This document shows positions 28,135 to 55,300 of a stretch of 64,000 nucleotides of DNA, in pieces. The DNA comes from Gordius albopunctatus (Eukaryota): positions 620,001-684,000 of the forward strand of contig OZ193909.1 in assembly GCA_964276515.1 (NCBI GenBank), in the 5' to 3' direction. The notes beneath the pieces are model-generated. The model was not told where the DNA came from. It made no database searches and was given only the letters and a program-made list of their open reading frames with translations. Position numbers and translations under genes: made by a program. Within the stretch, counting starts at the first letter, position 1. Each line of letters opens with the position of its first letter.

Positions 28135-31100
28135 TATTGGCGCGGTCGAGAAAAAACCTATTCTGAAAATGGAGACTGTGGGAATACCTAATTTTAAACA
28201 AGGTGATAATATTTCAATATACATAATAACTATCACTAATATTTTTGAGGCTACAAATGTGGCTAAAGATACTCGATGCAAAATAATATTTGGATACATG
28301 GGTCAAAAGAATATTGAAAATTTAATAAATTTCCTATACCCTCCAGATATATCCTTGCTTAAATATGAGGACTTAATAAAATGAATGAAAAAGGTATTTC
28401 AACAAAAATGTACAATTTCCCACTCTAGTCTAGATTACAATTCATGAGATGTCTTAAAAGAAATGATGAAACTCTGATTAAATATGTAACAAGATTAAAA
28501 TCATCCGCAGAAAATTGTTACTTCAAAACTAATTTAGATGAACGGCTCCGTGACCAAATCTTAAATGGGTATCAAAATCTATCATTGGAAATTGATGTCA
28601 GGACAAGATGGCCTGAAGCTTTAAAGAAAGGGGGTGAAGTGGTAACATTTAAGGATATATACAATCTAGCTGAATCAATGGAGACAGCTAATAAAGAAGT
28701 TAGCACATCACAAGATTTAAACAAAATTCAAAATTATAAACCAAATCCAACGTACTCAAATCAAAAGAATAGACAATCAATAAAACAATTTTATACAAAG
28801 AAGGATGAACATCAACAATCATTCATAAGAAATTGCTATAGATGTGGGAAGTCACATGCAATGAAGCAATGTCCAGCATTTTTAAAAGAATGTTCCATAT
28901 GTCATCATAGAGAACACTTTGCAAAAATGTGCAAAACCTCAAACAAAGTAAGCCAGATTATTAATACAATTGGAAAAATTTATGACTTAAATAATGCAAC
29001 TCACCTTAAACCATATATCCATGTAAGGATAAATCAGAAAATTTTCAAAATGTTATATGATACTGGCTCATCAGTATCCGTAATCAACAAGAATATCTAC
29101 AACATTTTAAATACACCTAAATTAACACCATGCCCCGAGATAAAAGCTTTTGGAAATAATCCAGTTCCTATATGTGGAGAAACACAAGTCTATGTAAATT
29201 TAAACAATAAAACTTTAAAATTAACAGCTATTGTAACAACTGTAGAAGAAAAACCCATATTTTGTTTAAATTGGATGCAAGCTTTTAACCTAAAACTTCC
29301 TCATCAAGTTAAGATTAATGGTATAGAAGAAAAACCTCAAAACATAGAAGAGGAATTGGTTGAAAAGTATACCAATGTGTTCAGTGATTGCACTGACTGT
29401 ATTAAAGATTATGAGGTAAATCTTTTTGTAAAAGAAGAAGCCAAAGCCATAGCATTTCCTGCACGAAGAGTTCCTTTTCCACTAAGGAAGAAAGTTGAAG
29501 AGGAAATTAAAAGATTATTGGACGAAGATATAATTGAACATGTTGATCCTGCAGCAGCACTAATAACATTCCAATAGTAAATGTATTAAAATCAAATGAT
29601 TCCATTAAAATCTGCGGCGATTTTCGAGTTACTATCAATCCCTTCCTAACTTTAAACAACCATCTACTTCCGACATTTGACGATTTAATTCTGAAGATCG
29701 CAGGAGGGCAGAAATATACAGTAATCGACTTACGTGATGCCTATCTTCAGATGAAGGTCGAAGAAAAGTCGCGACATTATCTCACTATCGCAACACATTT
29801 AGGCTATTATCGATATAAACGTCTTCCATTTGGACTTTCGATAGCACTAAATTTATTCCAACGTTAAATGGTGGAATTATTAGATGGCATTCCCCATATC
29901 GGCGAACTTCTAGACGATATCATATTTACAGGGGTAAATGAAAATGACCACTTGCAAAATCTGAACCAAGTACTAAAGAGGGTAAAGGACGCTGGTCTAA
30001 AAGCAAAGAAGTAAAGGATTAAATTTTTCCAAAATTTAGTTAAATACTTGGGACATGTGATCGATGCAACAGCGATCCACCCGACTCAAGAGCGAGTGGA
30101 AGCCATTGTTAATTTCAAAGAACCACAAAACAAAAAAGAACTACCTTCCTTTTTAGGACTAGTTAATTATCAGAAAAGGTTCATCCCAATGCTACACGAA
30201 AAATGCGCACCCTTGCATGCATTGACGGGCTCATCAATATGTTGGAAATGGACGACTAAAGAGCAGAAGATTTTTAACGATGTTAAACTGATGCTTTCAA
30301 CGTCCAATGATTTGGTACCGTATTCAACCTCATTGCCGTTTTACCTAGCGGTAGATGCTTCTGAAACTGGTGTAGGTGCTGTACTATCACACTTATATGC
30401 AGACGGGTCCGAAAGAGCTATTGCGTACGCATCCAGGACTTTAAGCGAGTACGAAAAACGATACTCTACAATTAATCGGGAAGCGCGAGCCATTGTGTTC
30501 GGTGTTCAAAAATTCGATCAATACTTACGTAGTCGAAAATTTATTCGGAAATCATCGGGATTTATCGAAATTGATCAATAATAAATTAATTCGGTGGGCT
30601 TTATTTTTAAATGGATATCAATACGACATAAAATACCGATCAGGAAAGAACAATCAATGTGCTGATCCATTGTCGAGACTGCCAGATCTAAAATATCTTG
30701 AGACGGATCAGATCAATCACGTAGGACTACTCATGTTAGATGAATTAAAGTTAGATTATGAAATGCTAAAAACATCAATTAAACAAGATCCTTCTTGTCG
30801 TGAATTAATTTTAGCGATCAACCGGGAATGGCGGTTGGATTTTAAAAAATGCCGTTTTGACATGAAAACGTACTACAATCGAAGAGAGGAACTGTCATTT
30901 GAAGATGGATTATTATTGCGTGGCAATCAGTTAATAATACGGAGGAGCTTACAAAAGTTGGTTTTAAAAATATTACACCAAGGACATCCCGGTATTACAG
31001 GAATGCTTAATTTAGCCCGATATTATGTTTAGTGGCCCGGAATGGACAAGAGTATTGATTTGTTTGTAAAGGAATTTGACGCTTGTCAAGAAGGCCGACA

Positions 31101-31982
31101 AGCCGAACAAGAAGTTATCTTATATTCTTGGTCCGTACCTGACCGTCCTTGGGATCGAGTCCACATAGATATTGCCGGACCTGTCGAAGGAAATTATTGG
31201 TTGGTTTTAATTGATGCATTATCGAAATGGGTTCGTCGATTAAAAGACCACAAATTGTGAGGAAATTACGAAATTGGTTTTGCAGGTTCGGTATTCCCTT
31301 GCAAATAGTATCAGACAATGGACCACAATTTGTCGGTGAAGAATTCGCAAAATTTTGTGACAACAACAACATTAAGCACGTAACATCAACTCCATACCAC
31401 CCCAAAACAAATGGATTAGCTGAGAGAATGATTTGAACGCTAAAATCAAGATACTGGGCAGCAAGAAAATCAGGGGAACAGAAAGAATTATGTCTACAAC
31501 AAATAATTATGACATACAAGAATACACCTCAGGCAACCACGGGTAAAGCTCCTGCGGAATCGTTGTTGTGAAGAAGAGTAAGGACAACGTTCGACCTTAT
31601 TCGACTAGATCCGAAAGAAAAGTGGAAAGAGAGATTAGCTAAACAAAAGAGCTACCATGACCGAAAAGCGCGTTATAGAGAATTTAATGTTGGAGATCCA
31701 GTATGGGTTCGGAATGAAATTAAAGCGGGCTGGTACGAAGGATTTATCATGCAACGTAAAAGCCCATATTCATATAATGTTCGCACTGATAAAGGAATTA
31801 AAAGGAAACACGCGGATCAGTTAAAATTCAGGATGCAACCCCAGTTTGTCGGAACTAACGATACTAGTCTGGAAACAAATGGTGAAAAAGTTGCAAGTCC
31901 GATTACGTTAAGACGATCGACTAGAACGTCAAAACCACCTGTACGGTTCTACGATGAATTTCACATTTAAAATAGGGAGAAA

Positions 31983-32082: not shown

Positions 32083-32705
32083 GCTACTGATTGTATCGTG
32101 TAAGCTATGTTATTCCACATATCGTTAGCATTCTGCTGATCATCTATTTGTAGCCATTCAATTATTTGATAATTTTAAATATCCTTCAATTTTGGTAGCC
32201 GGAACCATTTGATTTTCCCATTTAATCTCTTCGGTTTTTGTGTTTTTGCCTTGGAGATGGTATACTCCATCACAAATAGTCTATGTTGGGCTGCAATAGC
32301 CTCCCCTGGTATAAACTTTCTTGATATTAAGAGTAAATCCATCTGCGAAGACCGATTACCACTTTTGTACGTTATTAGGTTATTTACGTTCTTTTTGAAG
32401 AAGTTATTTGTGATGGCCAAATCAAATGCCACGGCTATTTTCAATATTTCGTTTCTTTCATCATTTCTCTCTCCGTATCCATTTCCACCATGGTACCGTT
32501 CAAATCCTTCTCTTGTTTTGCCTACGTGACCATTCATATCCGCTCCAATTATAAATATCTCGGCTCGGGGTATTATGTGCAGCGTTTTGTCCAATTCTTC
32601 CCGAAAGTCATCCTTTTCTTCATCTGTGCATCCTGTTTGCGAAGCATATCCGGTCACTACATTAATCATCTGACCTTCCAACGTCATGAGTCGCCCACTT
32701 TTACT
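32083..32705 (-). mobile_element. RTE APE-domain fragment, same family as the element at 1-2787
   Basis: The reverse complement closely matches ~375-947 (IGADMNGHVGKTREG, AITNNFFKK, YKSGNRSSQMD). It retains a segment deleted from the first copy near 808. Confidence 0.9.
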
Positions 32706-32709
32706 TCGT

Positions 32710-33068
32710 ACCAAAATGAATTTCTCTTGCAGATTTTGTTTAGGACACAAATAAACAAGATTCAAAAAGGAAAATCTAATGGCCCAGTTGGAATACCTAT
32801 AGTAGCATTGCACGGATTACATGAAGAAGTAGTTACCGCCTACTCGAATCTCGTTAACAAGATATTGGTTGAAGAGCAAACTCCTGATCAATGAAGAGAT
32901 GCACGATTATACCTTTATTTAAAGATAAAGGAGATCCTCAGGAATGTCGCAATTACAGAGATATCAAGCTAATTTGCGACTCCCTGAAGTTTTTGGAAAG
33001 GATCTTAGTAACAAGGCTGAAAAGCGAGGTGGAAATATCGGCTAATCAATTTGGATTCGGGGCGGGGT
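32710..33068 (+). mobile_element. RTE RT N-terminal fragment from a different family
   Basis: KGKSNGPVGIP...PDQ*KRCTIIPLFKDKGDPQECRNYRDIKL...NQFGF. Confidence 0.85.
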
Positions 33069-33276
33069 GCGCTTGGATTTTAATAAAGGTTTTAATTAAC
33101 AAATTTTATAATAATTGTATACACAAATAAATTAAAGAGATTATTTAAATTCACAATGATAAAAATCCCTTATTAAGCTGGTGTAAATTTATGGACGAGA
33201 TAGTGCTGTATTTAATTTAACAATTTCCAATGTAAAATTATCTTTAGGGTCATTAGGGATACCGGTACTGTATGCG

Positions 33277-33454
33277 AAAATTCCCTTTCAATTGGGCCTC
33301 TAGCGGTTACGAATGACTCGAAGCGATTCCGAGCAGGAATTTGGGACTCCGTGTGTTTGGGGAGGAATTACGCGATCCCAGGGGCCTCCGTCTCGACTGT
33401 AACATTATATCCCCATTCGTATCCGATCTCTGCAAACAGCCTGTCCAACCCAAT
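33277..33454 (+). mobile_element. Fragment of the CRE-like LINE family
   Basis: Aligns by eye to 43735-43918 (GCGGTTACGA..CTCGAAGC.ATTCCGAGCAGGAATTTGGGACTCC...GATCTCTGCAAACAGCC). Confidence 0.85.
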
Positions 33455-33461
33455 TTTGATT

Positions 33462-33708
33462 AAAATAACAGAAAACTACTAAGGGTATTAGAGCCTCGCT
33501 TGTGGGACTGGTATAGCCCCGGGCATTTTTTTGATTTCTAGAAAATTCTTTGTTTTAAACCTCTCTGAAATTTAAAATATGGATTGTTATAGTGTAAAAG
33601 AAATTTCTAATGACTAAAAACATTTTTATGCAATTTTAAAAAAATAGTTTTAACATTTTTGTATAGGGTGCTGTAATTTTTTATGGCCACCATAGCTCCG
33701 GTCTCCCC
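33462..33708 (-). mobile_element. Terminal fragment of the pogo-like family
   Basis: Ends in ATAGCTCCGGTCTCCCC followed by TA. Inverted match to 37426-37639 and to the left end of 61083-62904. Confidence 0.75.
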
Positions 33709-34825
33709 TACTCAGGATTCTAAATCAAGAATTTTAGTGATAAATTTCTGTGATTTTTTGAGCTTCATAAACATTTATGCTACAATTTTATCCCATTTAT
33801 AGGTAAAATATTCAATTATAAATTCACTGCTTTGCTAAATTTAATTTGTTTTAAAAGTATTGAAATATTAATAATAAATATAGTCGGTCCTTTAATTATT
33901 TCAACCTTTCGTTAGTAGGGTAAAATTAATGGTCGTTTTGTTAATCATTTTTAAAATTTCATATAATATTATTTTGTTGTTTTTAATTATATTTCAAATA
34001 TTTGTTATCAAATTTGTGGTTAGTTCATATAACCAAAATAATTTAAATTTTGAAAATAGTATTATAAAATGTTTTTAAAACAGGGTAACCTTGCACATTT
34101 CTATAATATTTACAACTTAAAAACGAATTTTTCCAAATATCAGTAGCATTTTATTTACAATTTGCGCAGAGTTTAACAAATTTAATGGATATATAATACA
34201 ATTATGACCCGTATATTAGTAATGTAATGTATTAGATTTGCTTTTAAAAACGGGAATTTTTATATTCGACAATCTCAATGGCACCGAGTAATTAGATGTT
34301 AATTGTGACACTTGCCTTGATGGGTTAGTATAAGCGTTCGGGGGTAGATTACAGCAAGTCAAAGAATTCTGCTGGAAAATAGTGAAAATTTAGAAATTTT
34401 GTTTCCATTTATTTTAATTTATTATTATATTTTTTTAAAAATTTTAAAAAACCTCTATATATTCTTCCTCAAAATCAGGTTTGGGTGGGCTACTCTGACG
34501 ATAGCACGTAGAGGTGATTAAGATCAAATTTATAAAGACAAATATTGCTGCAGAAACGTATAATGCTATCAGTCTATTCTCGCGCGATTCTACACAGTAA
34601 AAGTATGAAAAAACCACTTTATACGCTAAAACATTTGCTTTAAAAATGTAAAATTTATTTTGTTTATATATAGTTTGTGAATTTATATTTAGAATAACTA
34701 GTAACCAAATTTATATTATGACGACGGAAGTATGTTGACAATATGCGCACGTTTATACTATGATAAATAAATAGCAAACGCGACGAGATTTTTACATCTG
34801 TAAAAATTTATTTAAAATTGCAAAA

Positions 34826-37800
34826 TTACGAAAGAAAAGTTAAGAGCAAAAGGAGTAGACAAGTAATTAGGGAGTATGTACTCAATCTAACTGGAATGGC
34901 ATTGCTTCGTATCCTGGAATCTTGAAAATTTAACGAGTTGTCGACCAGCTGACAAGAATCCTCTTCGCATTTTATCACGCGCTCTAAACATCTGCATGTC
35001 ACGTTACAATTTTTGTTTACCACGCTAAATTGCGATCCGTCCTCGTAAAATTTGCCCCAACCGTAACAGCCTAGACATAAAACCATTTTGGGCGAAATTA
35101 AATTAGGTTTTTAAAACAAAATTTAATTATATTTTAAAAATATAATTTCAATAAACCTCCGTCCGTTATATCAATGGACTGAGGATCTACTTTTAAGTTT
35201 CCCAATTTTCCTTCCATAATTGCCATCATGAGCAGACCTTTGATCATAGCTAAAGTTTCAGGTCTATCGCTTGCTACAGCTACTTTAGATTGCACGATAA
35301 CTGAACCTTTCCTAATAAGATATTTAGAAAGCATTTTAGTTTTTAATATAAATTTAGTTACAAAAAAATAAAATTTCTTTGATTTTTATTAAATAACGAG
35401 ATGCTTTAAATATTTTTAAAACACATTTTTCCTGTAAAATAAGTAGGATATACTTAAATCCAGAAATCATGACTTTTTGGAACTGTGGTATTCCAGATAG
35501 AACGTTTCTAATCTTTAAATATTAATACAAATTTAAAATTCTCTAAAATATAACCAATAAAAATATTTTACTAAATATGAATTGTACCTGCATTCTAATC
35601 TCGTTGGCTAAAAGCTGTGTTTCAGGATTGCTGGGATCCATAAGATTTCCATTCCATTCATTTTGAAGCTTGAAATTAAAGTTTAATGCTGAACCAGTGT
35701 CATTGTTGTTCTCTAGATGAGTATTCGTAGGTTCGTTTATCATGACAGGACCTTGAATCCATACAGAAAATTAGCATTAAATTGTAAAATAAAAAATCAC
35801 TTGTTACTGCCATGGGCATATGGGGGCAATTATGATTTAGGGAGGGGCAAAATCATGATTTTAAGTAAATTTAGCTATAGTTATAATATTTAAAATTAAC
35901 AAAAAATGGGTTTAGAGGGGACAGCCCACCCCATGGAAACGCCCGTGGTTACTGCCTTTTATTTGCGTTTTTATAAAAATCGTTGAATTCCAAACTCGTG
36001 CAGGGTCTGATGCAAATGGGATTCGTTGTTACGATAGGAGACACTTCATGTCTATTAATCGATCCATCCTCTTGCCTAGAAAATATATTTAGAAAAATTG
36101 AAAATTCTTATTTTAAACTTAAAGATATGAATTTTTATGAGAAAATGATATAGCTTGTATTTTATTTAGTATTGAATTTCTTCCTCTCAAAATATAGAAA
36201 TTGCTATGAAATGACGACGTTAACTTCTACCGCAATTATTAAAACATTTTAACAGATGCTTTAATAGAAATTTTTCTCGAATATATAATTATGTTTGTAT
36301 GGAGACGATTTCGAATAAAAATGGATATAATTAAAAATGAAAATCTTAATATCACCTGGTAAAATATGCTAATTCCTAGTTCATGTCTTATCTTAATTTC
36401 AAAACTCCTTCAAATGACTCTTATACATTTGCAAATATATTATTTATTTTTGTATCTCCCTAAATAAATTTATATGACAAACCTGACACTTTTGACAAAT
36501 AACTACTTTTAATTATAATAATATTTAAAAAGAAATCTATAAAATTTATAAACCATTCAGCTCCAACGTATGGGAAAAATAAGTAATTGCACTCGGTATC
36601 TGAAAATTGTACATCTTGTAACATATCGCTGGTCATACGTTTCCTCTTAAATTTCAGAGTTGTGGTCATATTAACGAAAGAACCTTCTATATCATAAATG
36701 TTTTGACTTATATCTTTCACCGGTTGTCCATAACTTGATGACCAGCTGTGTTGTATATCAAAAACTATTTTTTATCAAGTTATAAAATTAAAATATTGGG
36801 TTTAAAAGATATTTTACCTCTGTTTTTTATGATGACCAGTAGATAAACACAATTATCTAAACTAATGTTTTAAACAAAAGCCGAAATTTTATGAAACAAA
36901 TTGGCAGTTTTTCGCAATTTTATAAAAAGTTTAATTATTCGTGTATAATAAAAAATTTTCAGATTCTAAATTGAATCGTTATCAGCTGACTTACGAATCA
37001 AACACTACAACTTTTTTATCAGCCGTGATCCAGCCATATACGAGGTCGGAGTTTGGCATTTTACGATTTTTAGAGAATCCAATGCCCGTCCATTTATTCA
37101 TGGAATTTTGAGCAACAATAGTAAATGCGATATCGTCAGTTGCTTGTTGAAATGTCCAAGATGCTTTATAAGAACAGTCGGGATCCTTACAGTCAGGAGG
37201 ATACCTCCATTCGCTTATATCGCAAATTGGTAAAGTCGAATTGCCACCCTCTGTTGAGTTAGTTCGGACCGGTATGGGCTTAAGTTCAGGTTTTTCTTAA
37301 TATTGCGAATAATAATATTTATCAAGTATGAAAATTTTTGTTATAAAGTTTAGTGTAAGATAAAATCATATTTGAAATTCTTTAAAATAGGAATATACTG
37401 TCAACTTTAAGCGCGACGTGTAATAAGGGAGACCTGGGCTATCGTATCCATAAAAAAGCGCCCAAGACAAAAATGTTAAAAATAGTAAAAAAAAACTCAT
37501 AAAAATATTTTTAGTCCTAAATTCTATGTTAGACAATTTTTTACATTAAAACAATCGATATTTTTAAAACCAGAGAGGTTTAAAAAATACAAATTTCTAG
37601 AAAGCAAAAAAATTCCCGGGGTTATACATATCCCATAAGTAGAGCCCTGCACAGGCCGCCCGAATACCGGCCCGAGTCCGGCCCAATCCGATCGGGCTTT
37701 GGGCCGGGCAGAATTTAATAAAACAATCTGGCGTGGAGCTCGGGTCGGGCCTGATGAGGCGCCCCGACCCAATACCCAAGCCCGGCCCGAATTGAGTAGA

Positions 37801-40800
37801 GAAAACGAATCTTTTATGAAATATGATTTGAACAAACTCAACTCGATATTAAATAATTATTATCTTTGTACACCATAACTAATATAGCTTCCAAGCTCAA
37901 TCTTTTTCCTGTGTGTATTATAATATTTTGACCTAAATTGCAAATCTCATTCTAGTATTTAAATATATTCAAAGTAGCTGTAACTTTAGAAATAAAATAA
38001 GTAAATATTTTAAGAAGTTTTTTTTGGAACTGTTAGATAAAATATCTTTTATAAAGTTTGATTTCCAGTTTTAAATTATTAGCTGAATAAATTGTGGCGA
38101 GTAATGAAAATTTTATTTCAAACTTATTCTAGTTGTAAATTATGTGTAATAACAATGTAATGCATTATTTATTAAAATAATTTTCAAAAATTTAAAATAA
38201 ATTTTCAACAATTTTTATTTTAAAAGTAGGGCTCGGGTCGGGCCAAAAATAAAAAGTCGTTCGGGCCGGGCTCGGGCAGAAAAAAAGCAGGGTTATAATA
38301 CTCTTAGTAGTTTTTTGTTATTTTATTTATGAAAACTTTCAATTATCTTTAAAACAACTATAAAAGAGCTAAAATATCACATATACTTATTGTATAAATT
38401 GTTTTTTATTATTTGTTTTCAAGGCTTATTTCAGCTTAGGGTATTATTATGGCAAGAGGTAATGTTTTTTTGACTTTTAAAAAATAATTTCGATTTTACC
38501 ATAGAAATTTAGGACTTCAGATCCTCTTTGATCCGATCGTGTTCCATGATACTTAATTTCGCCATCCTTGTAAAAATTTCTATCGCTAGCGCTACCCTAT
38601 AAATTAATTATGTGTATTTTGTTGTTATTTTATAATTTTTTATACAGTTTCTATTCCGGAGAAAGGTCGATGAAAAGGGGCTTTTATGTTTTGACCTTTG
38701 GCCCACGAAACGTGCATGGGGGCGTTTATAATACTGTGATCCGCTAGATCTGAAGCTGTTTATAAGTTTTAACGTTTAAATCTATTAAGCATGGTCATTA
38801 AGTACACCTTTTTATAACTTTAAAAATCTAAAATTCTTTAAATATTCACATAAATGATTATAGTTTCTTTAAGATAAATGATGATATTATTACACATAAT
38901 TTTTTTCCTGAAAATGAGCGTTGTTGTCCCATCTTTTTCATAGCCCAAAGCTGCGGAAATATCATTGCGCCCGCCTAAAGTTTTGTCCAATATCGGAGTT
39001 GATCTATCTCGAGAATAGTAATCGTCAATTCTGAAGTAATAGCCATTAGCGTGCCCAATCACCACATCCAAGCAATCCATGGGATGGATGGCATTTCCCT
39101 CTAAAAAATAGGGCTTTTAGTAATTTATATTGGAGGTTTTAAAAATTTTAGATCTTGATTCTCAGTTGTAGCGTTGTAAAAACGGAAGCATATCTACTCA
39201 TTAAAGGTAGGTTCTTTAGTCCGTTTTTCCTCAAACCTTTGGTCTGTGAATGTTTAGTCGATTAAACAAAACCCAGTCGTTCTTACAACAATATTTGGTT
39301 GTTTACTAGTTGCTATATCATTAAGGTCCTCCTCGGATACCGGGACCCTGGGGGAATCTCTTGGCGAGGGTTCGCTTCCAGGTGTTTTGCCAGAACCTAG
39401 GGCGGGTTGTTCAGGATTAGGAACCAAAGCAGAACTGCTTTCGTGTTGAGGAATATCTAAGCCTCCCTCCGGAGCAGGGATTTCACTCCTAGGTTCAGGA
39501 GCTATGGTGGGAGATTTTTCTGGAACTGGATTTAAAGATGAATTGCTTTCTGGCTTAGGAACAGTTCCTAAAGATTGCTCCGAGGTAGGGATCAATGAGC
39601 TTTCTGGTTGAGGAATTATTATAGAATCAGGAGCAACATTTGTTGCTCGCTCCGATATGGGGACGGGTGAAGGTTTAGTTTCAGCCTTAGCGACCACAGA
39701 TTCTGCTCCAATCGTTGGCTCTTTCAAGGGTTCACTGGAAATCTGGCTAGGGGGAGAGTTAGGTAGTGGTTGAGTCGAGGTAGAACTTTGTGTGGAGGTC
39801 GGAGCAGCAGTAACTAATTGCGAAATTTTTAGTACTTTTTTATCCCTATCGGTGCTGACTAAAGCAATAGGGGTCGTCTTTAGCCCTGGCATATCATTAG
39901 TGACTAGGGGATAATCTCCTTCGTTTCCCTGTTTAAAAGTTGCATTAAGAGCTTGCCTCTTGTTCCTTACAGTGGCGGGGGATTCTGGTTTCGGTAGTGC
40001 TTCGGCCTTGGGTTCTGGTTCCACCTCGGCAACCGGCTCATTTTTACTGACCGGTTCTTTTCGAGGAATAGTTGCTTCCTTTATATTGGCTTTTTGATCG
40101 GCTTTGGGATATAAAGGAACTCCTCCGTACTGCAGATTAATTGGAAAATGTTGACATTTCGATCGCAAATCTATACAAAATGAGCAAAGTTAGAATAATA
40201 ATTAATTTATCAATTTGAACTAGTGTTCTACAAACGCCTGGATCTTGTTTCGTCGACCTTTGGTTCAAGTTGACGAAAATTATTGAATAGACCAACAATT
40301 TTTTGGTCTGGTTTTCTTGATCGACCACAAGGCTTGGTCTAAATTTTAAAAATAGACCAGAGTCTCGGCCGTTATTCTTAGTTAGACCCAAGGTCGACCA
40401 CACAAATCCCAGCTGTTTTTAATTCAAGTTATAAGAAATTTTAAATACTGTTTGGACGCCATCCCAGCCCTAGCCAATTGGTGGTGTTGGCTCTGAGAAC
40501 CATTTCAATTTCATTTAGTTCGGGAAATAGTCTCCAGTAAAGGGTATATTCATTCCCAGGTTGAGTAGATAGGTGTCTTAGGTTATAGTAACGAGGGTCA
40601 AAATCCCAAGTATTTAAAGTTGAAACTGATAAAATTTTTGAATAAATAAATGTAATTTATTAATTTTTATAATAATTTTTTTTAAAATTATTTTTTAAAA
40701 ATTTCAAAATTTATACCCTTGGAACAATCTGTTCCCATGAATCCCCATTTACAATAACACACTTTTTGGGGAAAAGTATTAGCTTTGGTATCAATACATT

Positions 40801-43800
40801 TCCCTTGATTCATACAATCAGAGTCATTTTCACACTCGTCTAAAATTTAAACAAATTTTACAAATTTTATTAATTTTGATCGAATTTATACAATAAATAT
40901 TATTATTTTTATTTAATTTAAACCATATTTTTTTGAAATTTTTGAAAGCAGTATTAACATTGGTGTGGCCAAGGGGGGGGGACAGGGGTGGACGGATGCC
41001 CCCCTCTAAATCCTAAAATTTGTTACAATTTATTAAAATTATGGCTAAAATTTCAAAAAATGTTCATTTTGCCCCTTCCTAAATCATTATTGCCCCCTCT
41101 AATCTCAATGCTGGCTACGCCCATAAGTATTAATATTATTAACCGTGGTTCTCGCAAAATCGGCCCGTGTATTTGGGGCTACATTGGCATTTACCACCCA
41201 CAGAAATTCCATTAGGTTTGCATGGATCCAATCCTGATAAAAAAAATAAAAACAAAAAATTAATTTTAAAACATTTTTTATGAAAATTTGAAAAAAATAA
41301 AAAATCATTAAAAATTTTTAAATTGATTAAAAATTGATAACCAGGTTTAATATTGACGTCTGCACAACTCCAAAATAAGTAGCCATCTGGGCCAGCAGTC
41401 CATTCCTTAGCTTGTCGCAAAAGTCGGATAAAACAGTCTTCACACACTAGATTCGAAGGAATTGTCACAGTTTGACTTTGGGTCCTATCAAATTTTTTAT
41501 TTTGAATTATTAAATCAGAATAGCTTTAAAATTCTATTAATTTTTTAAAATAAATTGATAATTAAAAATATAAAAAATAAAATATATTTTTTAAAATTCC
41601 GTTTTTACGTATGGCCCTTGGATTGGACGTAAGTTGTGTTTGAATCCGTGGGAGCGAGCACTGATATGACTTGATTTTTTGAATTTATTAATTCGATTCG
41701 ATAACCTCCCTAAATCAATAATCAATAATCGATAATCAATCAATCATTTATTCATTCACATAAAATCTACCTGGTGGGGATATCCTAAGTGCCACGTCAC
41801 ATCAAATGTCGATCCAGGGAGTATATTAGTGGCTGGTCCCGAGGCTATTATTTAATTAAAAAAAATAAGTGATAATTTTTTTAAACTTATATATTATTAT
41901 ATTATGCGAAATTATTTATATATATTTTTTCTTCATATAAACTTGCTCCGAAATTGTCTTTAAAATATTGAAATTGGAAATAATAATTTGTAAAAAATTT
42001 AATTTTATAAATTAAATAAAATAAAAGTTTGTTTTTAGTTTTATAAAATTTTGTGATTTTTAAGAATTTAAATGGGGTCAATAAATTTTTGTTAATTATT
42101 ATGTCACGGTTGCGACAAGGATTAAAAAATTAATTAATTTTAACCTGGGGCATTAATGTAGTAGTAACAAGGTAATGTTACATTTAACCATCGATAACAA
42201 GATTTATAATTGAATAAACTAATTTTTAATCTTTCCCTCTTATCTTTTTTCCAATATTATAAATAGTTTCCACTAAAAAATAATAATTTTTTTATATATT
42301 ATAACTTAATTATATTCTATTTCTAGGATTAGAATAAATTAGGAATAATTTATGAATATATTACATAGTAAGATTTGGAAGTGAATGAGTTTTATAAAAA
42401 CCTTTGATAAAATATTAACGGACATATCTGGAAATGAGTAAATTATTTATAGAAAGGTTATTAACATAAAAATTTATTTTGGAATGTATAATTAAGTGGG
42501 GAAATAGCGTTTTTAAGGATCTAAAGCTATAGCACATAGCAACCATATGCCGCTATGTCTACTAGCACATAGTCACTTTAAGTGCTATAAGCTATAGGAG
42601 ATGGGAGGTTTGGGGCGCTAAAGCTATAGCCGATAGCACTTAAATGCGCTAGAGCTATAGCAAGGCGCTAACATTGAGAATAATTTTTTTAATTGTTTTT
42701 CTTTTTGAATCATCACCCCCCAGACAGATCTTTTAGTAAAACTAGACTTTAAAAACGCCTTTAACAGCGTAAATAAGGCGGCGTTTCTCGCACCCTTTCA
42801 GAAAGCATACCCTCAATTCTACCCATGCGCCCTCAATAGTTATGGAGCCCTATCCTTTCTACTGTTTGGGAACAAGATTATTCACTCCTCTAGTGGGATA
42901 CAGCAAGGCGATCCTCTAGGCCCAGCGCTTTTCTGCCAAGCTATACAAGGGATCATCCAGAAACTCTCTACCTTAGGAAGCTTTTCTTGCAACCTATGGT
43001 ACATGGACGACGGATTTTTGGTTGGCCCCGCGAGTGAAATACGTAAAATACAGGCGATTATTGAATCCTTTTCACATTCAATCGGCCTCGAACTCAACCA
43101 CTTAAAATGTGAAGTATACAGAAGGGATCCTTCACTAGATCCCTCAACACTCCCCTTTCCTGTCCTCACTCTCGACCAGTTCAGCCACCTAGGCGCACCG
43201 CTTGAGAGGGCCCATATCTTCCCAACGCTTTCTGGCCAAATTTTTAACTTTCATAGAGGCTGTCAAACCTACCCTACAGAAACTAACCCCACACCATGCA
43301 TTTTTTTGGCTAAAATTTCTGCTAATTCCGAAAATAAATCACGCCTTGCGTGCTTCACCTATCTTTGGCTGCCCAGAGCAATTAAATTTAATCGAACGAA
43401 ACATTCAGACTCTTTTTTAAACCTGCTTAAATATAAAGTTTACTCCAGTCCAATGGCTCCAGGCATCCCTCCCTTCTAAGAGTGGGGGAATTGGTATTCG
43501 ATCTCCGCAACAGATAGCATTAGCGGGTTTTATATCTTCACGCATGAGTACCGATCCCCTTATCTCTGCCATGACATCCCTCCCAGACCCGCACCTTCAC
43601 GAGGCTCTCCACAGGTGGGACGCCGACAAGCTCGAGTCAGCCGAACGACCACTCGGTGTGACCCAAAAGGAATGGGATCTTCCCCTAATAGCACGTTCCG
43701 TCGCTTTCCTTTCTTCGAACGAACTATCTCATGGAAAACTCCTGTTCAATTCGGCCTCTTCCAAGAGCGGTTACGAGTGGCTCGAAGCTATTCCGAGCAG

Positions 43801-46800
43801 GAATTTGGGACTCCATATGTCTGGGAAGGAGTTACGCTAAGCCATAGGCCTCCGTCTCGGATGCGACATAGTATCCCTTTTCGTATGCGATCTCTGCAAA
43901 CAGCCGGTCCAACCCAATGGTCGTCATCCCCTCCATTGCAAATACAGCAAAGGCCGCAACCCCAGGCACACGGCAATCAACAAAATCATCGACCAGTACC
44001 TCAGAAAGGCTGGCTACCCAAACACCTTAAAGCCCGTTGGCCTTAGCACCACCGATGGGAAAAGACCAGACGAGGTCACACTCATCCCATGGTCCCGTGG
44101 ACTGAATCTCACTTGGGACTTCACCACGGTCGACATATTTGCCCCATCCAACTCCTCTCCCGACCTTATAGTCAGTGCAGAGAATAGGAAGACAGCCAAA
44201 TATTTTTCCCTCGCGGGCAACCATAATTGGAAATTTAGGCGTTTAAGCTCTCGCTCTCTTGAAACAAATTGGAAGAGCGATCTCCAGCGTCTCTTTAGAT
44301 TTGAAAGAATACTTTTTTATCAGGCAAAAGATCACAATGGAAATCGTTAAATCCAATACGATTTCAATACACGGATCAATGCCATCCGTTTAGTTATAGC
44401 GCGTTTATAAAAATATTTTTAGTCGTGTATGTAATTTTTTGTATACCATTTAATAAATTTTCAATTTGTGGGGAAAAAAATGTTTATTAAATATTAAAAT
44501 ACAATAACATGAGTGAGTACGCACAAGTTCATATTATACTCTATTGTTTTCATTGAAATTATTATTATCAATGTTAGAGCCGTGCTATAGCTCTAGCACA
44601 TTTAAGTGCTATCGGCTATAGCTTTAGCGCCTCAAACCTCCCATCTCCTATAGCTTATACCACTTAAAGTGACTATGTGCTAGTAGACATAGCGTATTTA
44701 ATAGGCTATTCCCATCAGCGGGGAGGTGCTGAGCGCGCTAGTGCTAAGCGTTTTCCCATCACTACTATTTTTAAATAAAAATGATATATTTGGTTAATAT
44801 TATGAGAAAATGAATAAGTCTTGCTCATTAAAAGATTCTATTTTTCAGTAACAAATTATGTTAAAAAATAAAAACAAATTAGTAAAAAATTTTTTGTTAA
44901 ATATAATTAAAATCTTATTTCATTTAGAACGAGGCATTTTTCCTTGAATTATTTAAGAAAAAAGGCAATATTAAATTTTGTTTTTATTTTAGATATAATT
45001 TAAGTTAGAATTTATATTAATTTATTCACATTATTAGTCCAAATAGATAATTTAAAATAATGTTCCTACCAATTGTATAACTATAATATTAGACATTGTT
45101 AATTATATAAATTTTGATAGTTTTCTCAATTATGATCAAAATCTCAAAATGCTAAAATAAACAAAGATTAAATTTAAATGAGTGTGAAAAAGTTAAAAAA
45201 TGACAAACTCTTTGTCAACACATCAAATTAAACAGTAATAGTATTTAAGAAATGGCCTGTAAAATTAGGAAAGGTCAAAAAGAAAATGCATAGTTATTTT
45301 AAAAAAATTACCTATATGGAACACGAGAACTCTAAAAAGATTTTTTACAATGTCAAAATTAATATCGGGCACCTCGTTTAATTTTGAGATTTTCAAAGTT
45401 TTTTAAAACTTATTTTCGGAAGCTTTTCAAAAAAATAAATTCAAATTGTTTTAAAAATTTGTACAATAAATTCCATGTGTGCTCTCAGGGAATAGAATGA
45501 GAAGGGGGTATATTATCATTTTCTGAAATTTTTATTTTAAAAGTTTATATAAAAAATAAAATAATGCTAAAATCAATTGGAATTTAAGTCATTTTAAAGG
45601 CTGATATTTAAAGGCAATATACTAAAAATAAATAATTTTAACCTTGAAATTCAATGGCCACACTGATTAAATACAATTGAAATGCCGTTTAACCTCGTAT
45701 AAAAAATACCTGAGGCCATAAAAAGTATTTTAAAATCTCCTGTCTATTTAATCGTGGATAATTTAGCGTTATTTATTGAAAAATTTACAAAATCGAACCT
45801 TAATTTCCGAGTTATTAACTCTTATTGTAATAAAGAGTAAAAAAAATTAATTAATAATATTTCTTTTTAACGGAACTTTTTTATCTGGAACCCCTATCTA
45901 ACTTACAGTAAGGTGCTCTACATTTATTAGGGTAAACTCTATCAGAATTAGAATATGACTGCAAGGCAAAACCCTAAATAGATAGAGTTACCATAGTTTG
46001 ACTTAGATGCCATAGAATATCAATTACAGATTAGAAACTCTTCCTGTAGAATTAAAATTAATAAATTATAAATTTCTAATATTATACATCAAAAATTAAT
46101 TAAAAAGCAAGCATTTTTATTAATTATGTTCAGAAATAGAGTATAAATTATTCTTGTTTTATACTATATTTTTCATAAAATTACTTTTTGTTAATTTTAA
46201 AACTGTTTAGACTCTGTTGAAATAACATGAGGTTAAATAACAAAATAAAGGAAAATAAAAACCTAGTGCTTTAATCACTAACCTTGGATGAAGGGGGCTG
46301 GCGATCGATATCAACAAGTTACCAAAAATTTAAAAGCCAAAGCATTTTAATATCAAAAAAAGAATTATAAATTATTTTTTGACAAAATAATTAAAAATTT
46401 TATTTGTATAAATTATTTGGTATTTTATTAAAAAAATAACTTTTGACCAATGAACTCGTTAATCTAATCATTAGCCTTAAAAAGTATTTTTAAAAAGCTT
46501 AGATTTCAATCGTTAGCATCAGTCTGGCAAAAATTGGGGAAAAACTAAGCAATTTAATCAAAAATACTTGGCAAAATATCCAATATTTACCCTAAAATTT
46601 GTAGCAAAACAATCCGTTATATTATTTAAAAAAATGAAATACCTGACGGAACACCACAGGGGCCCGATGTTCTGACATTGTCTAAAAAATCAAAGGGATA
46701 CGATCTTGCAGGTGGGTAGGTTAATCGAATATGACCCAAAACTCCGTTATATTTATAAAGCGTTAGAAATATCAATAGCAATTTTTTTGCCAATCCCCTG

Positions 46801-46895
46801 GAACCAGAATTATGGCGGGAGATTTTGGCATTTTGGCGCCTTTTTTCCAGCGACCAGAAGGATTCAGGATCTGACCCACTCACCGACAATGGCAT
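34826..46895 (-). CDS. Secreted, probably GPI-anchored multidomain protein: His-brace LPMO-like domain, 2x EGF, DOMON split by a Pro/Ser/Thr/Glu-rich insert, second DOMON, SEA, Cys-rich VWC-like module, hydrophobic tail
   Basis: Exons 5' to 3': 46895-46643, 41844-41771, 41709-41609, 41484-41342, 41233-41144, 40839-40717, 40625-40449, 40170-39287, optional 39243-39198, 39100 (or 39098)-38894, 38755-38646, 38596-38500, 37295-36995, 36745-36554, 36075-35996, 35751-35588, 35512-35454, 35311-35157, 35070-34826. All are GT-AG and phase-compatible; the junctions at 39287/39100 and 35996 are less certain. Motifs: LLLIFLTL...VLG|HIRLTYPPAR, WHLGYPHQGG, FWSCADV, WLGLGWRP, HPMDC, IKYHG, WTGIGFS..KMPNSD, INRH, FKKGSVIV, SLITCLLLLLLTFLS*. 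Confidence 0.9.
35811..35947 (-). mobile_element. hAT-type MITE copy with a perfect 8-bp TSD
   Basis: gttactgc at 35803-35810 and 35948-35955. Confidence 0.9.
37426..38325. mobile_element. pogo-family terminal fragment interrupted by a GC-rich element (37640 to ~38283) with GGCCCG/CGGGC subterminal repeats
   Basis: TA followed by AGGGAGACCTGGGCTAT at 37426. The pogo-family sequence stops at cccataag (37639) and resumes near 38284. The insert shares GGAGCTCGGGTCGGGCCTGATG with ~56679-56700. Confidence 0.65.
40958..41125 (+). mobile_element. hAT-type MITE copy with a perfect 8-bp TSD
   Basis: agtattaa at 40950-40957 and 41126-41133. Confidence 0.92.
42551..44694. repeat. 134-bp inverted repeat arms (42551-42684 and 44561-44694) of a foldback/MITE-like element
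   Basis: CGCTATGTCTACTAGCACATAGTCACTTTAAGTG...AACATTGA and its reverse complement, with few mismatches. The arms are rich in GCTATAGC units. Confidence 0.9.
42711..44480 (+). mobile_element. CRE-clade non-LTR retrotransposon with restriction-like endonuclease, 5'-truncated and disrupted
   Basis: KLDFKNAFNSV, GIQQGDPLGPALF, LWYMDDG, QASLP..GGIGIRS, WLEAIP..LGL, CDLC..H..HC zinc knuckle, RH..IN, GKRPD..LIPW..G..WDFT. AATAAA at 44452 and an A-run at 44474-44480. Confidence 0.9.
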
Positions 46896-52309: not shown

Positions 52310-55300
52310 ATGACTAACTTTTCATTAGATGAAATGCTTAAGGCTTATAAAGTTGTAAAGTCCAGTCCATACTACAATAGAACTCCATTAATACCATTTA
52401 ATAGGGTTAAATTTGATTTTTCTTTATATCTTAAATTAGAAAACATGCAGAATACAGGTATTATATGAATTTTAATAGGTGCTTAACTGATTGATTTTTT
52501 ACATTTTTGGATTAACTTTATCCTAAACAATATCTTAAAGATAAGATTATAATTACTAATTATTTTGATAAATATTAAATTAAAACCTATAAAGAATTCT
52601 ACTTTTTTACAACATCTATAATCAAAATTATTTCTGGCCTATTTAAAATTATTTTTATCACATATATAGGATCATTTAAGATTCGTGGTGTCATCAATCA
52701 AATTGAACATTTTCAAAATAGGGATCAGGGTATTGTTACCTCATCTGCTGGAAATTATGGAAAAGCTCTAGCTTATATATCTCAACAATTAAATTTGAAA
52801 TCTACCATATTTTTGCCAGATACAGCACCTAATGATAGGGTTAATCTTATTAGGGTATATATTTTTGATTTATAAAACTCTATGTTACAAATAGAATTTT
52901 TTATATAATATATTTTATTGATTATAAGTAAATCTTCTTCTTCTTTCTATGACTGCTTGTCACCAAGGCTGGTGGTCAGTCCTTTCAGCATTTGTTTCTC
53001 TTTATCTTGTGGACTTTCATATCATGCCATATTTTATGAATCTAGATTAGCTTGGGTCTTCCTCTTCTTCGTTTTCCTGCAAAATTTATCATCTCAATTT
53101 TCTTTCCTACGTAGCCATCGTCCCTTCTTTCTACATGGCCATACCATCTTAGTCTATTTGTTAGGAGCTTTGTCGCAATTGATTTAGTACCCAAAATTCT
53201 TCTTATTTCTTCATTTCGCCTATGATCCTTTTTGCTTACTCCTAGCACCCATCTTAGCATTCTCATCTCCATGGCTGCAAGACGTTGCTCTTCTTTTTTA
53301 CGTATAGCCCATGATTCCGAGCTATACAGGACTGTTGGCTGTATGATGGATTTATACAGTGCGCCTTTTAGTTTTCTCTGGATGTTTTTGTCACACAGAA
53401 CACCTGTCAGGTCCCTCCACTTGAGCCATCCGGAATTTATCCTTGTTTGGATTTCTTTATCCATTCCACCATCCGATTGAAGTGTTGATCCTAAATATTT
53501 GAAGGAATATCGCCTAAAATAAGGGATGCACTTTGCTGGTTTTCATCCGATTTAAACTTTGTTTTCATGTATTCTGTTTTCTTTCGATTTACCCTGAGAC
53601 CACTTTCTTCTATTGCATTTACCCATCTATTTACAGTGTTAGCCAATTCTTGTTCGCTTTTGGCACAGAGGATTATATCGTCTGCAAAGATCATTGCCCA
53701 AGGAACTTCCTCGCCCAAATCCTTGGTAATATTATCCATTATCATTATGAATAGGAAGGGACTAAGAGCTGAACCTTGATGAACTCCAGTGTTGATGGCA
53801 AAGCCTTTTGTAGTCCCCACCGTTGTTCTAACATACGTTCTATTTCCCTTGTACATATCTTTTATTGCTCTGACGTGAAGTTGTGGCACATTGTTTTCTT
53901 CAAGACATTTCCAAACTAAATTACGAGGAACTTTATCGAACGCTTTTTCTAGATCGATGAAACACATGTGCAAATCCTCTTCCCTTTCTTTAAACCGTTT
54001 CATTAATCTTCAAACACTGTTTAGGGCGTCTGCTGTAGACCTCTCAGGCATAAATCCGAATTGGTTATCTCGAATTTGAACCATACTCCGAAGCCTTTTT
54101 TCCATCACTTTTTCCCACACCTTGAAAGTGTGACTCATAAGCTTTATCCCTCTGTAATTGTTGCAATCCTGAATGTCCCCTTTCATCTTGTATATCGGGA
54201 TCATGTAGCTATCCCTCCACTCGTCAGGCATTTTACCCGTTTTCAAGATATTGTTGAAAAGGTTGGCGAGGAATTGTGCACCAGTATTGCCTAACGCTTT
54301 GAAGCCTTCTATCGGTATATTGTCGGTCCAAGAGCTTTTCCTGACTTTAGTTTACTCATAGCAACTTTCACTTCCGTTTCCGTGATCCAGTCCGCTGTGT
54401 TTAATTCTCCTATTGTATTTTCCTGGTTAGTGTCTTCGACTACAGGCCCCTTCTCAATTGATAAATCGCTCTAATAGTCGTACCATATTTGTAGTATATG
54501 GCTGTCGTGTGTTAGTATTTCTCCCTTTTGACCCTTAATTAGCCGGCATTCTAGGTAATCTTTAGAATTTCGGGCCCTTGACTTTGCGATTTTATAGATA
54601 AATCTTTCTCCTTCCTTTGAGTGAGTTTTACATTTATATCGTCGTACACCTTGTTTTTAGCTTTCGCTACGAATCTTTTAGCCGATCTTTTAGCTACTTG
54701 GTAAGCTTGCTTATCATTACTATCCTTGCTTTTATACCAAACTTTGTACAATCTCTTCTTTTCCTTGAAACATTTTTGCACTTCTTCATTCCACCACCAC
54801 GTCTCCTTGAGAATTCTTTTAATGGTCTTGCTTTCACCTAGTATTTGTCGTCCCGCTTTTCGCATTGTGGCAGCTATACCATTCCATTGATCCTCACATG
54901 AAGTATTTTCCTTAAATTCATCAAGTTTAATTACTTGTTCCTGAAAATGTTGAATATTATCCTTTAGATTCCTCCATTGTATAGTAGCGGCTACTCTTTG
55001 CTCTTTAAGGCCCTTTAATATAAAGTCCATCACCAACAGCTTGTGTTGGCAGGCCAATATTTCACTCGGTATTACCTTAACATTTTGAACATACTTTAAG
55101 TGCGCTCTCTTGACTAGAAGTAGAAAGAAATCTATCTGAGTGGTACGGCTGCCGCTTTTGTAAGTTATAAGATGTTCCTGTCTCTTTTTGAAGAAGGTAT
55201 TTCCTATTGCTAGGTCAAAAGCTTGAGCAATTTCTAGAATTTCCGTACCTCCTTCATTTCTTAGGCCGTAACCCCGACCACCGTGATTTCTTTCGAATCC

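What the first reader, a model, noticed from the sequence alone, without database searches (positions are those of the whole stretch)
34826..46895. Animal cell-surface protein fusing a histidine-brace LPMO-like copper domain to two heme-type DOMON domains: candidate self-reducing oxidative enzyme
Seen in sequence, but invisible in the ORF track because it is spread over small exons. A hydrophobic signal ends VLG, which would leave His (codon 46731-46733) as residue 1 of the mature chain: HIRLTYPPARSYPFDFLDNVRTSGPCGVP...PGSTFDVTWHLGYPHQGGYRIEL...VTIPSNLVCEDCFIRLLRQAKEWTAGPDGYLFWSCADVNI. Established knowledge: His1 followed by xxLxxPxxR, a PCG motif, a second His about 50 residues later (here His54, 41774-41776) and a terminal aromatic-x-x-CAD[VI] strand are hallmarks of LPMOs (AA10/AA11/AA15) and of the LPMO-like X325/Bim1 copper proteins. 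Both DOMONs keep the Met and His pair used by heme-b DOMONs such as the cellobiose dehydrogenase cytochrome domain, a natural LPMO reductant (Met 39078-39080 / His 38546-38548; Met 37057-37059 / His 36048-36050). Inference: one polypeptide wires a heme electron relay to a Cu site at the cell surface, for oxidative remodelling of cuticle/ECM glycans or for copper handling. I know of no functional description of this architecture in animals.
Basis: partly seen in the sequence, partly recalled or inferred. Interest (0 to 1): 0.92.

Follow-up and report, generated by a model that had tools for sequence, protein, structure and literature searches.

The report
Copper enzyme with built-in electron wire
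This animal gene encodes a cell-surface protein, with relatives from green algae to insects and sea squirts, that joins a predicted copper site on the fold of polysaccharide-cutting enzymes to two likely heme domains; several algal relatives also carry a membrane electron carrier, so the family likely pipes electrons from the cell to a copper centre that would oxidise material outside it.

Summary
Observation confirmed and extended. An 18-exon GT-AG gene (1,144 aa) encodes signal, His1 domain, two EGFs, a split DOMON, a second DOMON, SEA- and VWC-like parts and a GPI-like tail. A missed exon (34453-34589) offers a transmembrane end, as in the nearest relative, a horsehair worm protein. The gene belongs to the family NCBI names 'nahoda' in insects. 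The His1 domain has the LPMO fold (pLDDT 95.9; best match AA15, Z 13.4; X325 Z 10.9). His1 is kept in 83 of 85 relatives and His54 in 82; DOMON1 Met and His in 62 and 60 of 65. New here: the family reaches green algae and Rhodelphis, and 7 of 85 scanned relatives (all named ones green algae) end in a four-His cytochrome b561, a complete predicted wire from cytosol to copper. So the animal protein is a relay, not self-reducing. It is not AA15 or X325: by sequence alignment, Tyr replaces AA15's Ala89 and Glu182. Best reading (0.5): a b561/heme-fed copper redox enzyme acting outside the cell; main rival: copper reduction and uptake. One paper notes DOMON/EGF proteins on the LPMO tree; my ten searches found no functional study.

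The parts
46643..46895 (-). Exon 1: 54-residue leader ending Val-Leu-Gly, mature His1 (46731-46733), invariant Asp15 (46689-46691), Pro-Cys-Gly motif
41771..41844 (-). Exon 2: His49, Tyr52 (41780-41782, at the place of TdAA15A Ala89) and His54 (41774-41776), the second predicted copper ligand
41609..41709 (-). Exon 3: middle of the LPMO-fold domain
41342..41484 (-). Exon 4: end of the LPMO-fold domain with Gln113, Glu116, Trp117, Tyr124 (place of TdAA15A Glu182) and Phe126 (place of axial Tyr184)
41144..41233 (-). Exon 5: EGF-like domain 1
   Evidence: PF23106 E 2e-5
40717..40839 (-). Exon 6: EGF-like domain 2
   Evidence: PF07974 E 1.9e-5
40449..40625 (-). Exon 7: first strands of DOMON1 (profile positions 3-38)
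39307..40170 (-). Exon 8: Cys326, then a low-complexity insert inside DOMON1 with one furin-type site (39956-39967)
38894..39100 (-). Exon 9: DOMON1 resumes; predicted heme Met616 (39078-39080) and Cys618
38646..38755 (-). Exon 10: DOMON1
38500..38596 (-). Exon 11: end of DOMON1; predicted heme His731 (38546-38548)
36995..37295 (-). Exon 12: DOMON2 first half; predicted heme Met826 (37057-37059)
   Evidence: DOMON E 8e-12, CDH-cyt E 0.02
36554..36745 (-). Exon 13: DOMON2 second half
35996..36075 (-). Exon 14: end of DOMON2; predicted heme His920 (36048-36050)
35157..35751 (-). Exons 15-17 (35588-35751, 35454-35512, 35157-35311): SEA-like domain
   Evidence: no Pfam hit on exons 15 and 17 alone; SEA found after the DOMONs in relatives; exons 15 and 17 match Gordionus
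34826..35070 (-). Exon 18: VWC-like domain; read through, it ends in a hydrophobic GPI-like tail and stop; internal phase-1 donor after 34882
34453..34589 (-). Alternative exon 19: predicted transmembrane helix and start of a cytoplasmic tail
   Evidence: tblastn to Gordionus P0001 residues 1338-1387, 36% identity, E 1.3e-4; AG acceptor in phase 1
34216..34371 (-). Candidate exon 20: rest of the cytoplasmic tail to a stop (inferred from splice signals only)
   Evidence: no homology support

Best explanation
The gene encodes a membrane-anchored member of the nahoda family that likely works as a cell-surface copper redox enzyme with its own heme wire: electrons would pass from a cytochrome b561 or a small reductant through the predicted Met/His hemes of the DOMON domains to a predicted His1/His54 copper site, which would then activate O2 or H2O2 to oxidise material outside the cell. 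Shown by calls: gene structure, domain order, two alternative membrane anchors, conservation of the ligand residues, and b561 fusions in green-algal relatives. Predicted: the LPMO fold, signal cleavage before His1, copper and heme binding, furin cleavage of the DOMON1 insert with the halves held by a Cys326-Cys618 disulfide. Inferred by analogy with cellobiose dehydrogenase/LPMO and with CYBDOMs: the direction of electron flow and O2/H2O2 chemistry. In animals the donor must act in trans. The substrate is open: within this reading I put a matrix glycan at about 0.3 and a non-glycan or oxidase role (H2O2 supply, matrix cross-linking) at about 0.2.
For: Fold: pLDDT 95.9 with 85 sequences; the 22 best VIA rows are all LPMO-fold proteins, led by TdAA15A at Z 13.4, rmsd 3.1, 135 aligned, 24% identity, with X325 at Z 10.9, rmsd 2.8, 118 aligned, 11%; every Foldseek row shown is an LPMO-fold protein. 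Alignment to TdAA15A (E 5e-7) puts His54 on His91, Phe126 on axial Tyr184 and Trp117 on the surface Tyr166 that PMC5823890 links to substrate binding. Conservation in 85 rows of median identity 40%: His1 83, His54 82, Phe126 74, Trp117 68, Glu/Asp116 81, Asp15 85. DOMON1 Met 62 and His 60 of 65; DOMON2 Met 51 (11 gaps) and His 49 (10 gaps). Cytochrome b561 ends 7 of 85 Pfam-scanned relatives, four above the Pfam cut-off, all seven with four aligned His; named ones are Bryopsis, Ostreobium (two) and Mesostigma. A plant DOMON-b561 protein carries ascorbate electrons across the membrane and reduces Cu(II) (PMC10784544).
Against: At the backbone place of the Gln/Glu that PMC10472438 finds in over 96% of AA9-11 LPMOs, the family has Tyr (66 of 85; Glu in 1), and Tyr also replaces Ala89 next to the copper (64 of 85). 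Glu116, Gln113 or Asp15 may stand in, but I had no coordinates to test this. The domain is only 135 residues, near X325 in size, and X325/Bim1 show that this fold can bind copper without cutting polysaccharide (PMC7924993). None of the animal proteins scanned carries b561, so the donor in animals is unknown. Some relatives have lost ligands: His54 in 3 of 85 rows plus the Trichoplax paralogue P0033, which was not among those rows; the DOMON1 Met in some nematode proteins. Conservation counts are partly built in, since the rows are top hits of a profile that holds these columns.
Confidence: 0.5

Rival explanations
1. Copper capture and reduction for uptake. The His brace binds Cu(II) like Bim1/X325, the heme wire reduces it to Cu(I), and the ion is passed to a Ctr1-type importer: a Bim1 with its cupric reductase built in.
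For: Small domain, GPI-like anchor, weak BIM1-like Pfam match in 13 of 13 domains; invariant Asp15 could be an extra carboxylate ligand as in X325 (PMC10952591); CYBDOMs are ferric/cupric reductases (PMC10784544, PMC10691727); the usual LPMO Gln/Glu position holds Tyr; Bim1 works with Ctr1 (PMC7924993).
Against: Fold and sequence are closer to AA15 than to X325 (Z 13.4 vs 10.9, 24% vs 11%); the axial aromatic and a surface Trp are kept; the Gordionus domain scores 19.6 bits against the BIM1-like cut-off of 27; DOMON arrays of up to eight Pfam stretches and a mucin-like insert look more like a reach into the matrix than a hand-off at the membrane (inference).
Confidence: 0.27
2. Reverse flow or terminal electron sink. 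The copper site oxidises an extracellular small molecule or metal ion, or reduces O2 or a nitrogen oxide, and the hemes buffer or carry the electrons; no polymer is modified.
For: The wire's parts do not fix the direction or the substrate; two conserved Tyr and a Trp sit by sequence near the predicted copper site; members occur in organisms with very different matrices.
Against: The characterised DOMON-b561 protein sends electrons outward from ascorbate; no tested LPMO-fold protein in the papers I read works this way.
Confidence: 0.13
3. Non-redox adhesion or matrix scaffold. The LPMO-fold and DOMON domains bind glycans or partners, and the metal ligands are relics or structural.
For: EGF, SEA, VWC/TIL domains and a mucin-like insert are typical of adhesion and matrix proteins; some paralogues have lost ligands; DOMONs can bind sugars (PMC10691727).
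Against: His1, His54 and both Met/His pairs are kept together from green algae to insects; sugar-binding DOMONs lack the Met/His pair (PMC10691727); the b561 fusions keep four His.
Confidence: 0.1

Closest known systems
nahoda family (insect 'DOMON-like domain-containing protein nahoda'; Gordionus LOC135927195)
   Same: Same domain order and ligand residues; 103 of 135 identities with Gordionus and 59 of 130 with Anticarsia nahoda in the His1 domain; both nematomorph genes offer GPI-like and transmembrane ends.
   Different: Nothing essential; the family is named but, in my searches, functionally undescribed. Databases label it by DOMON/EGF only.
AA15 LPMO (TdAA15A, PDB 5MSZ)
   Same: Best structural match (Z 13.4, 135 aligned); His brace, axial aromatic and surface aromatic align; secreted, animal.
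   Different: 135 vs 195 residues; 4 Cys vs ten conserved; Tyr for Ala89 and Glu182; fused to EGF and heme-type DOMONs and membrane-anchored.
X325 / Bim1 (PF20238, PDB 6IBH)
   Same: Small LPMO-fold His-brace domain with a GPI-like anchor; Z 10.9.
   Different: 11% identity; the Gordionus domain is below the Pfam cut-off; no redox domains are described for X325/Bim1 in the passages I read.
CYBDOM proteins (plant HYP1/CRR, insect CG8399, SDR2)
   Same: Met/His DOMONs; algal members of this family end in DOMON-b561 as CYBDOMs do.
   Different: CYBDOMs as described in PMC10784544 and PMC10691727 have no His-brace domain; the animal nahoda proteins scanned have no b561.
Cellobiose dehydrogenase / PQQ sugar dehydrogenase cytochrome (AA8) plus fungal LPMO
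   Same: Heme-b DOMON-fold cytochrome that reduces an LPMO; a Trichoplax DOMON aligns to 6JT6 with Met on Met (E 0.006).
   Different: There the cytochrome is fused to the electron source and the LPMO is separate; here it is fused to the acceptor.
Bacterial SCE4755 family polysaccharide monooxygenase-like proteins (NF043005)
   Same: Best family profile for the His1 domain: 13 of 13 domains match, best E 1.7e-10.
   Different: 41 bits against a cut-off of 75; bacterial; itself a hypothetical-function family.

Membership tests
nahoda family | Domain order His1 domain, EGF x2, split DOMON, DOMON, SEA, anchor, with high similarity to named members | tested here: met
   tree. Drosophila nahoda itself was not fetched; the name comes from NCBI labels on moth proteins.
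LPMO (functional class) | Mature N-terminal His after a signal peptide | tested here: met
   His1 in 83 of 85; residue -1 A/G/S/C/T in 82 of 82; leader of 9-35 residues in 78 of 82. Sequence proxy only: SignalP not run, and the window's leader is 54 residues.
LPMO (functional class) | Second His of the brace | tested here: met
   His54 in 82 of 85, aligned to TdAA15A His91. The His1-His54 distance was not measured: the fold tool gives no coordinates.
LPMO (functional class) | LPMO beta-sandwich fold | tested here: met
LPMO (functional class) | Axial Phe/Tyr under the copper | tested here: met
   Phe126 aligns to Tyr184; Phe in 74 and Tyr in 2 of 85
LPMO (functional class) | Second-sphere Gln/Glu | tested here: inconclusive
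   Tyr124 at the usual place (66 of 85); chitin-active AA10s use another backbone place (PMC10472438), and Glu116, Gln113, Asp15 are conserved candidates
LPMO (functional class) | Copper binding and oxidative cleavage of a polysaccharide | not testable with these tools
   needs protein
AA15 | Ten conserved Cys, Ala two before the second His, about 190-residue domain | tested here: not met
   4 Cys in the domain, Tyr52, 135 residues; AA15 features from PMC5823890 and chain length
AA10 / PF03067 LPMO_10 | Pfam gathering score over the model | tested here: inconclusive
   Gordionus domain alone 27.3 bits vs cut-off 23, but only profile positions 82-183; whole protein 18.9
X325 / BIM1-like (PF20238) | Pfam gathering score | tested here: not met
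   19.6 vs 27 for the Gordionus domain; 2 of 55 relatives pass narrowly at 27.7 and 28.7
X325 / BIM1-like (PF20238) | Asp carboxylate as fourth copper ligand | not testable with these tools
   Asp15 is invariant (85 of 85) but its distance to the brace could not be read
SCE4755 family (NF043005) | NCBIfam cut-off 75 bits | tested here: not met
   41.1 bits
Heme-b DOMON | Conserved Met and His ligands | tested here: met
   criterion from PMC10691727
Heme-b DOMON | Bound heme b | not testable with these tools
   needs spectra
CYBDOM | Cytochrome b561 in the same chain | tested here: not met
   absent from the window's model and from the Gordionus protein; present in 7 relatives

The most novel reading that the evidence does not exclude
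Nahoda proteins are an undescribed, ancient eukaryotic family of His-brace copper enzymes hard-wired to their reductant: cytosolic ascorbate to cytochrome b561 to a chain of DOMON hemes to copper, in one polypeptide in green algae and split between nahoda and a separate b561 protein in animals. This would let a cell switch oxidative cutting or cross-linking of its own wall or matrix on from inside, and would identify b561/DOMON proteins as the missing electron donors of animal LPMO-type enzymes.
Probability: 0.35. Interest if true: 0.92.

Novelty: new variant of a known kind. Interest (0 to 1): 0.8.

Why it matters
How LPMO-type copper sites are reduced in animals is open: the AA15 paper only suggests unnamed dehydrogenases (PMC5823890). 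What DOMON-b561 proteins reduce outside the cell is also only partly known. This family joins both halves in one chain, so the link can be tested directly: an algal His-brace/DOMON/b561 protein in oocytes, or fly nahoda point mutants. It would add a His-brace family found in sponges, placozoans, protostomes, invertebrate deuterostomes and green algae, with an unusual Tyr-rich second sphere. A naturally wired LPMO-fold enzyme would also interest biocatalysis. Even under the copper-uptake rival it would be an unrecognised animal and algal counterpart of Bim1 with its own reductase.

Tried and rejected
Expression: no RNA holder listed; splicing was not checked against reads. No whole genome is held, so copy number and a trans-acting b561 partner could not be sought. 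Complex prediction of the His1 domain with DOMON1 plus heme (homologue P0030): no answer, score 0.23 against a mark of 0.34, alignments not used; it bears neither way. First fold with 13 sequences was poor (pLDDT 69.5) and was replaced. His49 as the second ligand: rejected, 53 of 85. Separate genes or a gene-model artefact: rejected; NCBI models join the parts, and five relatives of 901-2,184 aa lie on contigs of 3.7-6.9 kb, likely transcripts. Two algal models do carry likely artefactual fusions (GluTR in P0179, TMC in P0180), but the b561 end recurs in seven proteins, two of them on such short contigs. Transfer from an insect host: not supported; the window's protein pairs with Gordionus (support 1.0) outside the clade that holds all named arthropod proteins (0.99) in a FastTree of 50 rows and 377 columns; deeper nodes are weak, no topology test was run, and an IQ-TREE run returned nothing. 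Prokaryotic or viral close relatives: none confirmed among 61 and 25 pattern matches; these scans are insensitive. ESM Atlas hits for the domain were under 0.9, leads only; the whole-protein query returned the family's own clusters. A single DOMON2 exon found no solved relative. Ribosomal S17 hits are chance. Earlier findings of this scan: none. The fly identifier searched was recalled and returned only irrelevant papers.
Full report
1. The gene is real. Using splice signals I built an 18-exon model from 46895 to 34826: 17 of 17 introns are GT-AG, phases agree, and the product is 1,144 residues with no internal stop. A search with exon 4 returned one protein, from the horsehair worm Gordionus sp. 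(80% identity), whose cluster holds four NCBI models of LOC135927195. tblastn with it matches 17 of the 18 exons in order. The window is therefore most likely from a nematomorph (inference from this match and the tree). No RNA holder was listed, so the junctions are predicted.

2. Anatomy. Leader of 54 residues; His1 domain (mature 1-135, exons 1-4); two EGF domains; DOMON1, split after its first strands by about 280 low-complexity residues; DOMON2; SEA-like and VWC-like parts; anchor. First, there are two possible ends. Gordionus models end either in a short hydrophobic tail (P0003, P0004) or in a transmembrane helix with a cytoplasmic tail (P0001, P0002). The window has both: read-through of exon 18 gives the GPI-like tail, and a phase-1 donor after 34882 fits an exon at 34453-34589 that matches the Gordionus helix (E 1.3e-4). 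Second, the DOMON1 insert carries a furin-type R-x-K/R-R site in 21 of 40 animal-side rows, against 1.5 expected from shuffles of each insert; the 10 non-animal rows all have RR-L/M against 0.2 expected, a pattern I chose after seeing them. The Cys before and after the insert occur together in 36 of 50 rows, are both absent in 10 and unpaired in 4. I infer that the insert is cut while a disulfide holds the two halves of DOMON1.

3. The family. Residues 58-330 of the Gordionus protein found 30 proteins among 388 candidates, in chelicerates, crustaceans, insects, an annelid, molluscs and Trichoplax; NCBI names the moth members 'DOMON-like domain-containing protein nahoda'. A profile of 13 His1 domains matched 1,204 representatives at E up to 0.001, 346 at 1e-10; I saw only the best 150. 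Look-ups of 20 relatives (18 from that list, 2) named a sponge, nematodes, echinoderms, hemichordates, a tunicate, a sawfly, the green algae Bryopsis, Ostreobium, Pyramimonas, Chara and Mesostigma, and Rhodelphis; 3 had no name. In a FastTree of 50 rows the window's protein is sister to Gordionus (1.0) and outside the clade of all named arthropod proteins (0.99); the green-algal proteins group at 0.83. This fits vertical descent, with weak deep nodes.

4. The His1 domain has the LPMO fold. With 85 sequences AlphaFold2 gave pLDDT 95.9 and pTM 0.90 for the Gordionus domain, which shares 103 of 135 residues with the window's. VIA-align against 48,161 chains ranked TdAA15A first (Z 13.4, rmsd 3.1, 135 aligned, 24% identity), then AA16, AA10, AA11, AA13 and X325 at Z 11.8 to 10.9; the first non-LPMO-fold row is rank 23, Z 8.4. 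Foldseek agrees. A sequence profile finds TdAA15A alone among solved structures at E 5e-7 and aligns His54 to His91, Tyr52 to Ala89, Trp117 to Tyr166, Tyr124 to Glu182 and Phe126 to Tyr184 (the Glu182 number is counted from that alignment; the other roles are from PMC5823890 passages). In 85 rows of median identity 40%: His1 83, His54 82, His49 53, Asp15 85, Glu/Asp116 81, Phe126 74, Tyr124 66, Tyr52 64. These rows were the Gordionus domain, 74 further proteins of the 90 full-domain hits (15 left out: 13 near-duplicates, P0033 and P0048) and 10 partial or algal additions. P0033, a Trichoplax paralogue, has Asp for His54. The residue before His1 is A, G, S, C or T in 82 of 82, as signal peptidase requires (established knowledge). 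So the brace is well supported by sequence, but the second sphere is not that of AA15: Tyr sits where over 96% of AA9-11 enzymes keep Gln/Glu, although some AA10s supply it from another place (PMC10472438 passages). By profile the nearest family is the bacterial SCE4755 group (41 bits, cut-off 75). It is a separate LPMO-fold family, not AA15 or X325.

5. The DOMONs are of the heme type. Among 65 long relatives DOMON1 keeps Met in 62 and His in 60; DOMON2 keeps Met in 51 (11 gaps) and His in 49 (10 gaps). PMC10691727 (passages) states that this pair binds heme b in the cellobiose dehydrogenase cytochrome and is absent from sugar-binding DOMONs. A Trichoplax DOMON aligns Met on Met with the cytochrome domain in 6JT6 (E 0.006); that this Met is the ligand is recalled. 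Some nematode proteins have lost the DOMON1 ligands.

6. The new clue. Of 85 distinct relatives scanned with Pfam, seven end in cytochrome b561: P0100 Mesostigma (33.7 bits), P0131 Bryopsis (30.2), P0182 (28.7) and P0177 Ostreobium (28.6) pass the cut-off of 23; P0181 (21.4), P0179 (18.6) and P0178 Ostreobium (15.3) do not, but all seven keep four aligned His. The six of them that were in the tree alignment keep His54 and both DOMON pairs, and five keep His1; P0177 starts downstream of it. Of the nine algal-type proteins, six have the b561 end and three do not; Pyramimonas, Chara and Rhodelphis members also lack it, and no animal protein scanned has it (one search showed at most five families per protein at E 0.001). 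A plant DOMON-b561 protein moves electrons from cytosolic ascorbate across the membrane and reduces Fe(III) and Cu(II) (PMC10784544 passages). The algal chain His brace, EGF, DOMONs, b561 thus reads as a full wire ending on copper. The animal protein keeps the outer part and needs a donor in trans, so 'self-reducing' overstates it.

7. Mechanism. Best reading (0.5): heme-fed copper redox enzyme that activates O2 or H2O2 on extracellular material. Rivals: copper reduction and uptake in the manner of Bim1 (0.27; PMC7924993 and PMC10952591 passages); another electron-transfer role (0.13); non-redox scaffold (0.1). That the site is redox-active in some way (the first three together, 0.9) is much better supported than any substrate.

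8. What is in print. Ten searches of the held library. [quoted passage not shown] The preprint 10.1101/2025.06.05.658061 (passage; supplements closed) mentions DOMON and BIM1-like signals among unassigned candidates. 'nahoda' occurs in 12 papers, 11 listed, several unrelated; the three I opened give a gene list, egg-chamber expression citing Manning 2017 (not read) and an accessory-gland secondary-cell marker. LPMO with DOMON domain and cytochrome b561 gave 0 papers, and LPMO, DOMON, EGF, fused, AlphaFold gave 0. PMC12067858 was seen as passages. Subscription papers, including Iyer 2007 on DOMONs and the X325 paper, were not searched or read and could hold an earlier description.

9. Verdict. 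Observation confirmed; interpretation partly supported and strengthened on the electron-relay point. Each module is of a known kind, the family has a name, and its place near LPMOs was noted once in passing, so I rate it a new variant of a known kind. The wiring of a His-brace site to DOMON hemes and, in algae, to b561 is not described in what I could search, and it is directly testable. Interest 0.8.

Noticed in passing
window 42551-44694 (intron 1 of the gene): A 143-nt inverted repeat (94% complementary) brackets 1,858 nt holding broken frames of a non-LTR retrotransposon (RVT_1 E 1.5e-12 at 42709-43476): likely a retroelement fragment nested in a small DNA transposon.
   Followed up: partly
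window about 33200-33480: A diverged second copy of part of the same retroelement, seen as similar translated stretches.
   Followed up: no
window 14466-16976, + strand: An 836-codon open frame with no Pfam match at E 0.01; likely a large exon of another gene.
   Followed up: partly
window 28429-31970, + strand: A broken LTR retrotransposon with protease and RT-RNase H matches.
   Followed up: partly
window 58093-58509, + strand: Last part of a PLP-dependent enzyme gene (PALP, E 8.5e-9).
   Followed up: partly
window 1182-2459, 32175-32816 and 53042-55903: Fragments of RT/endonuclease-type LINE elements (RVT_1 E 4e-26 at 53494-54009).
   Followed up: partly
window 46829-46831, - strand: An out-of-frame ATG 64 nt downstream of the predicted start, and an AG acceptor just upstream of the start, suggesting an untranslated first exon.
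   Followed up: no
proteins P0054, P0048, P0009, P0098, P0043: Relatives with long DOMON arrays (up to 8 Pfam stretches, with 7 SEA stretches in P0054) and nematode-type members with three TIL domains.
   Followed up: no
proteins P0033, P0062, P0063, P0079, P0041, P0043: Relatives that have lost His54 or the DOMON1 ligands: natural negative controls for the copper and heme tests.
   Followed up: partly
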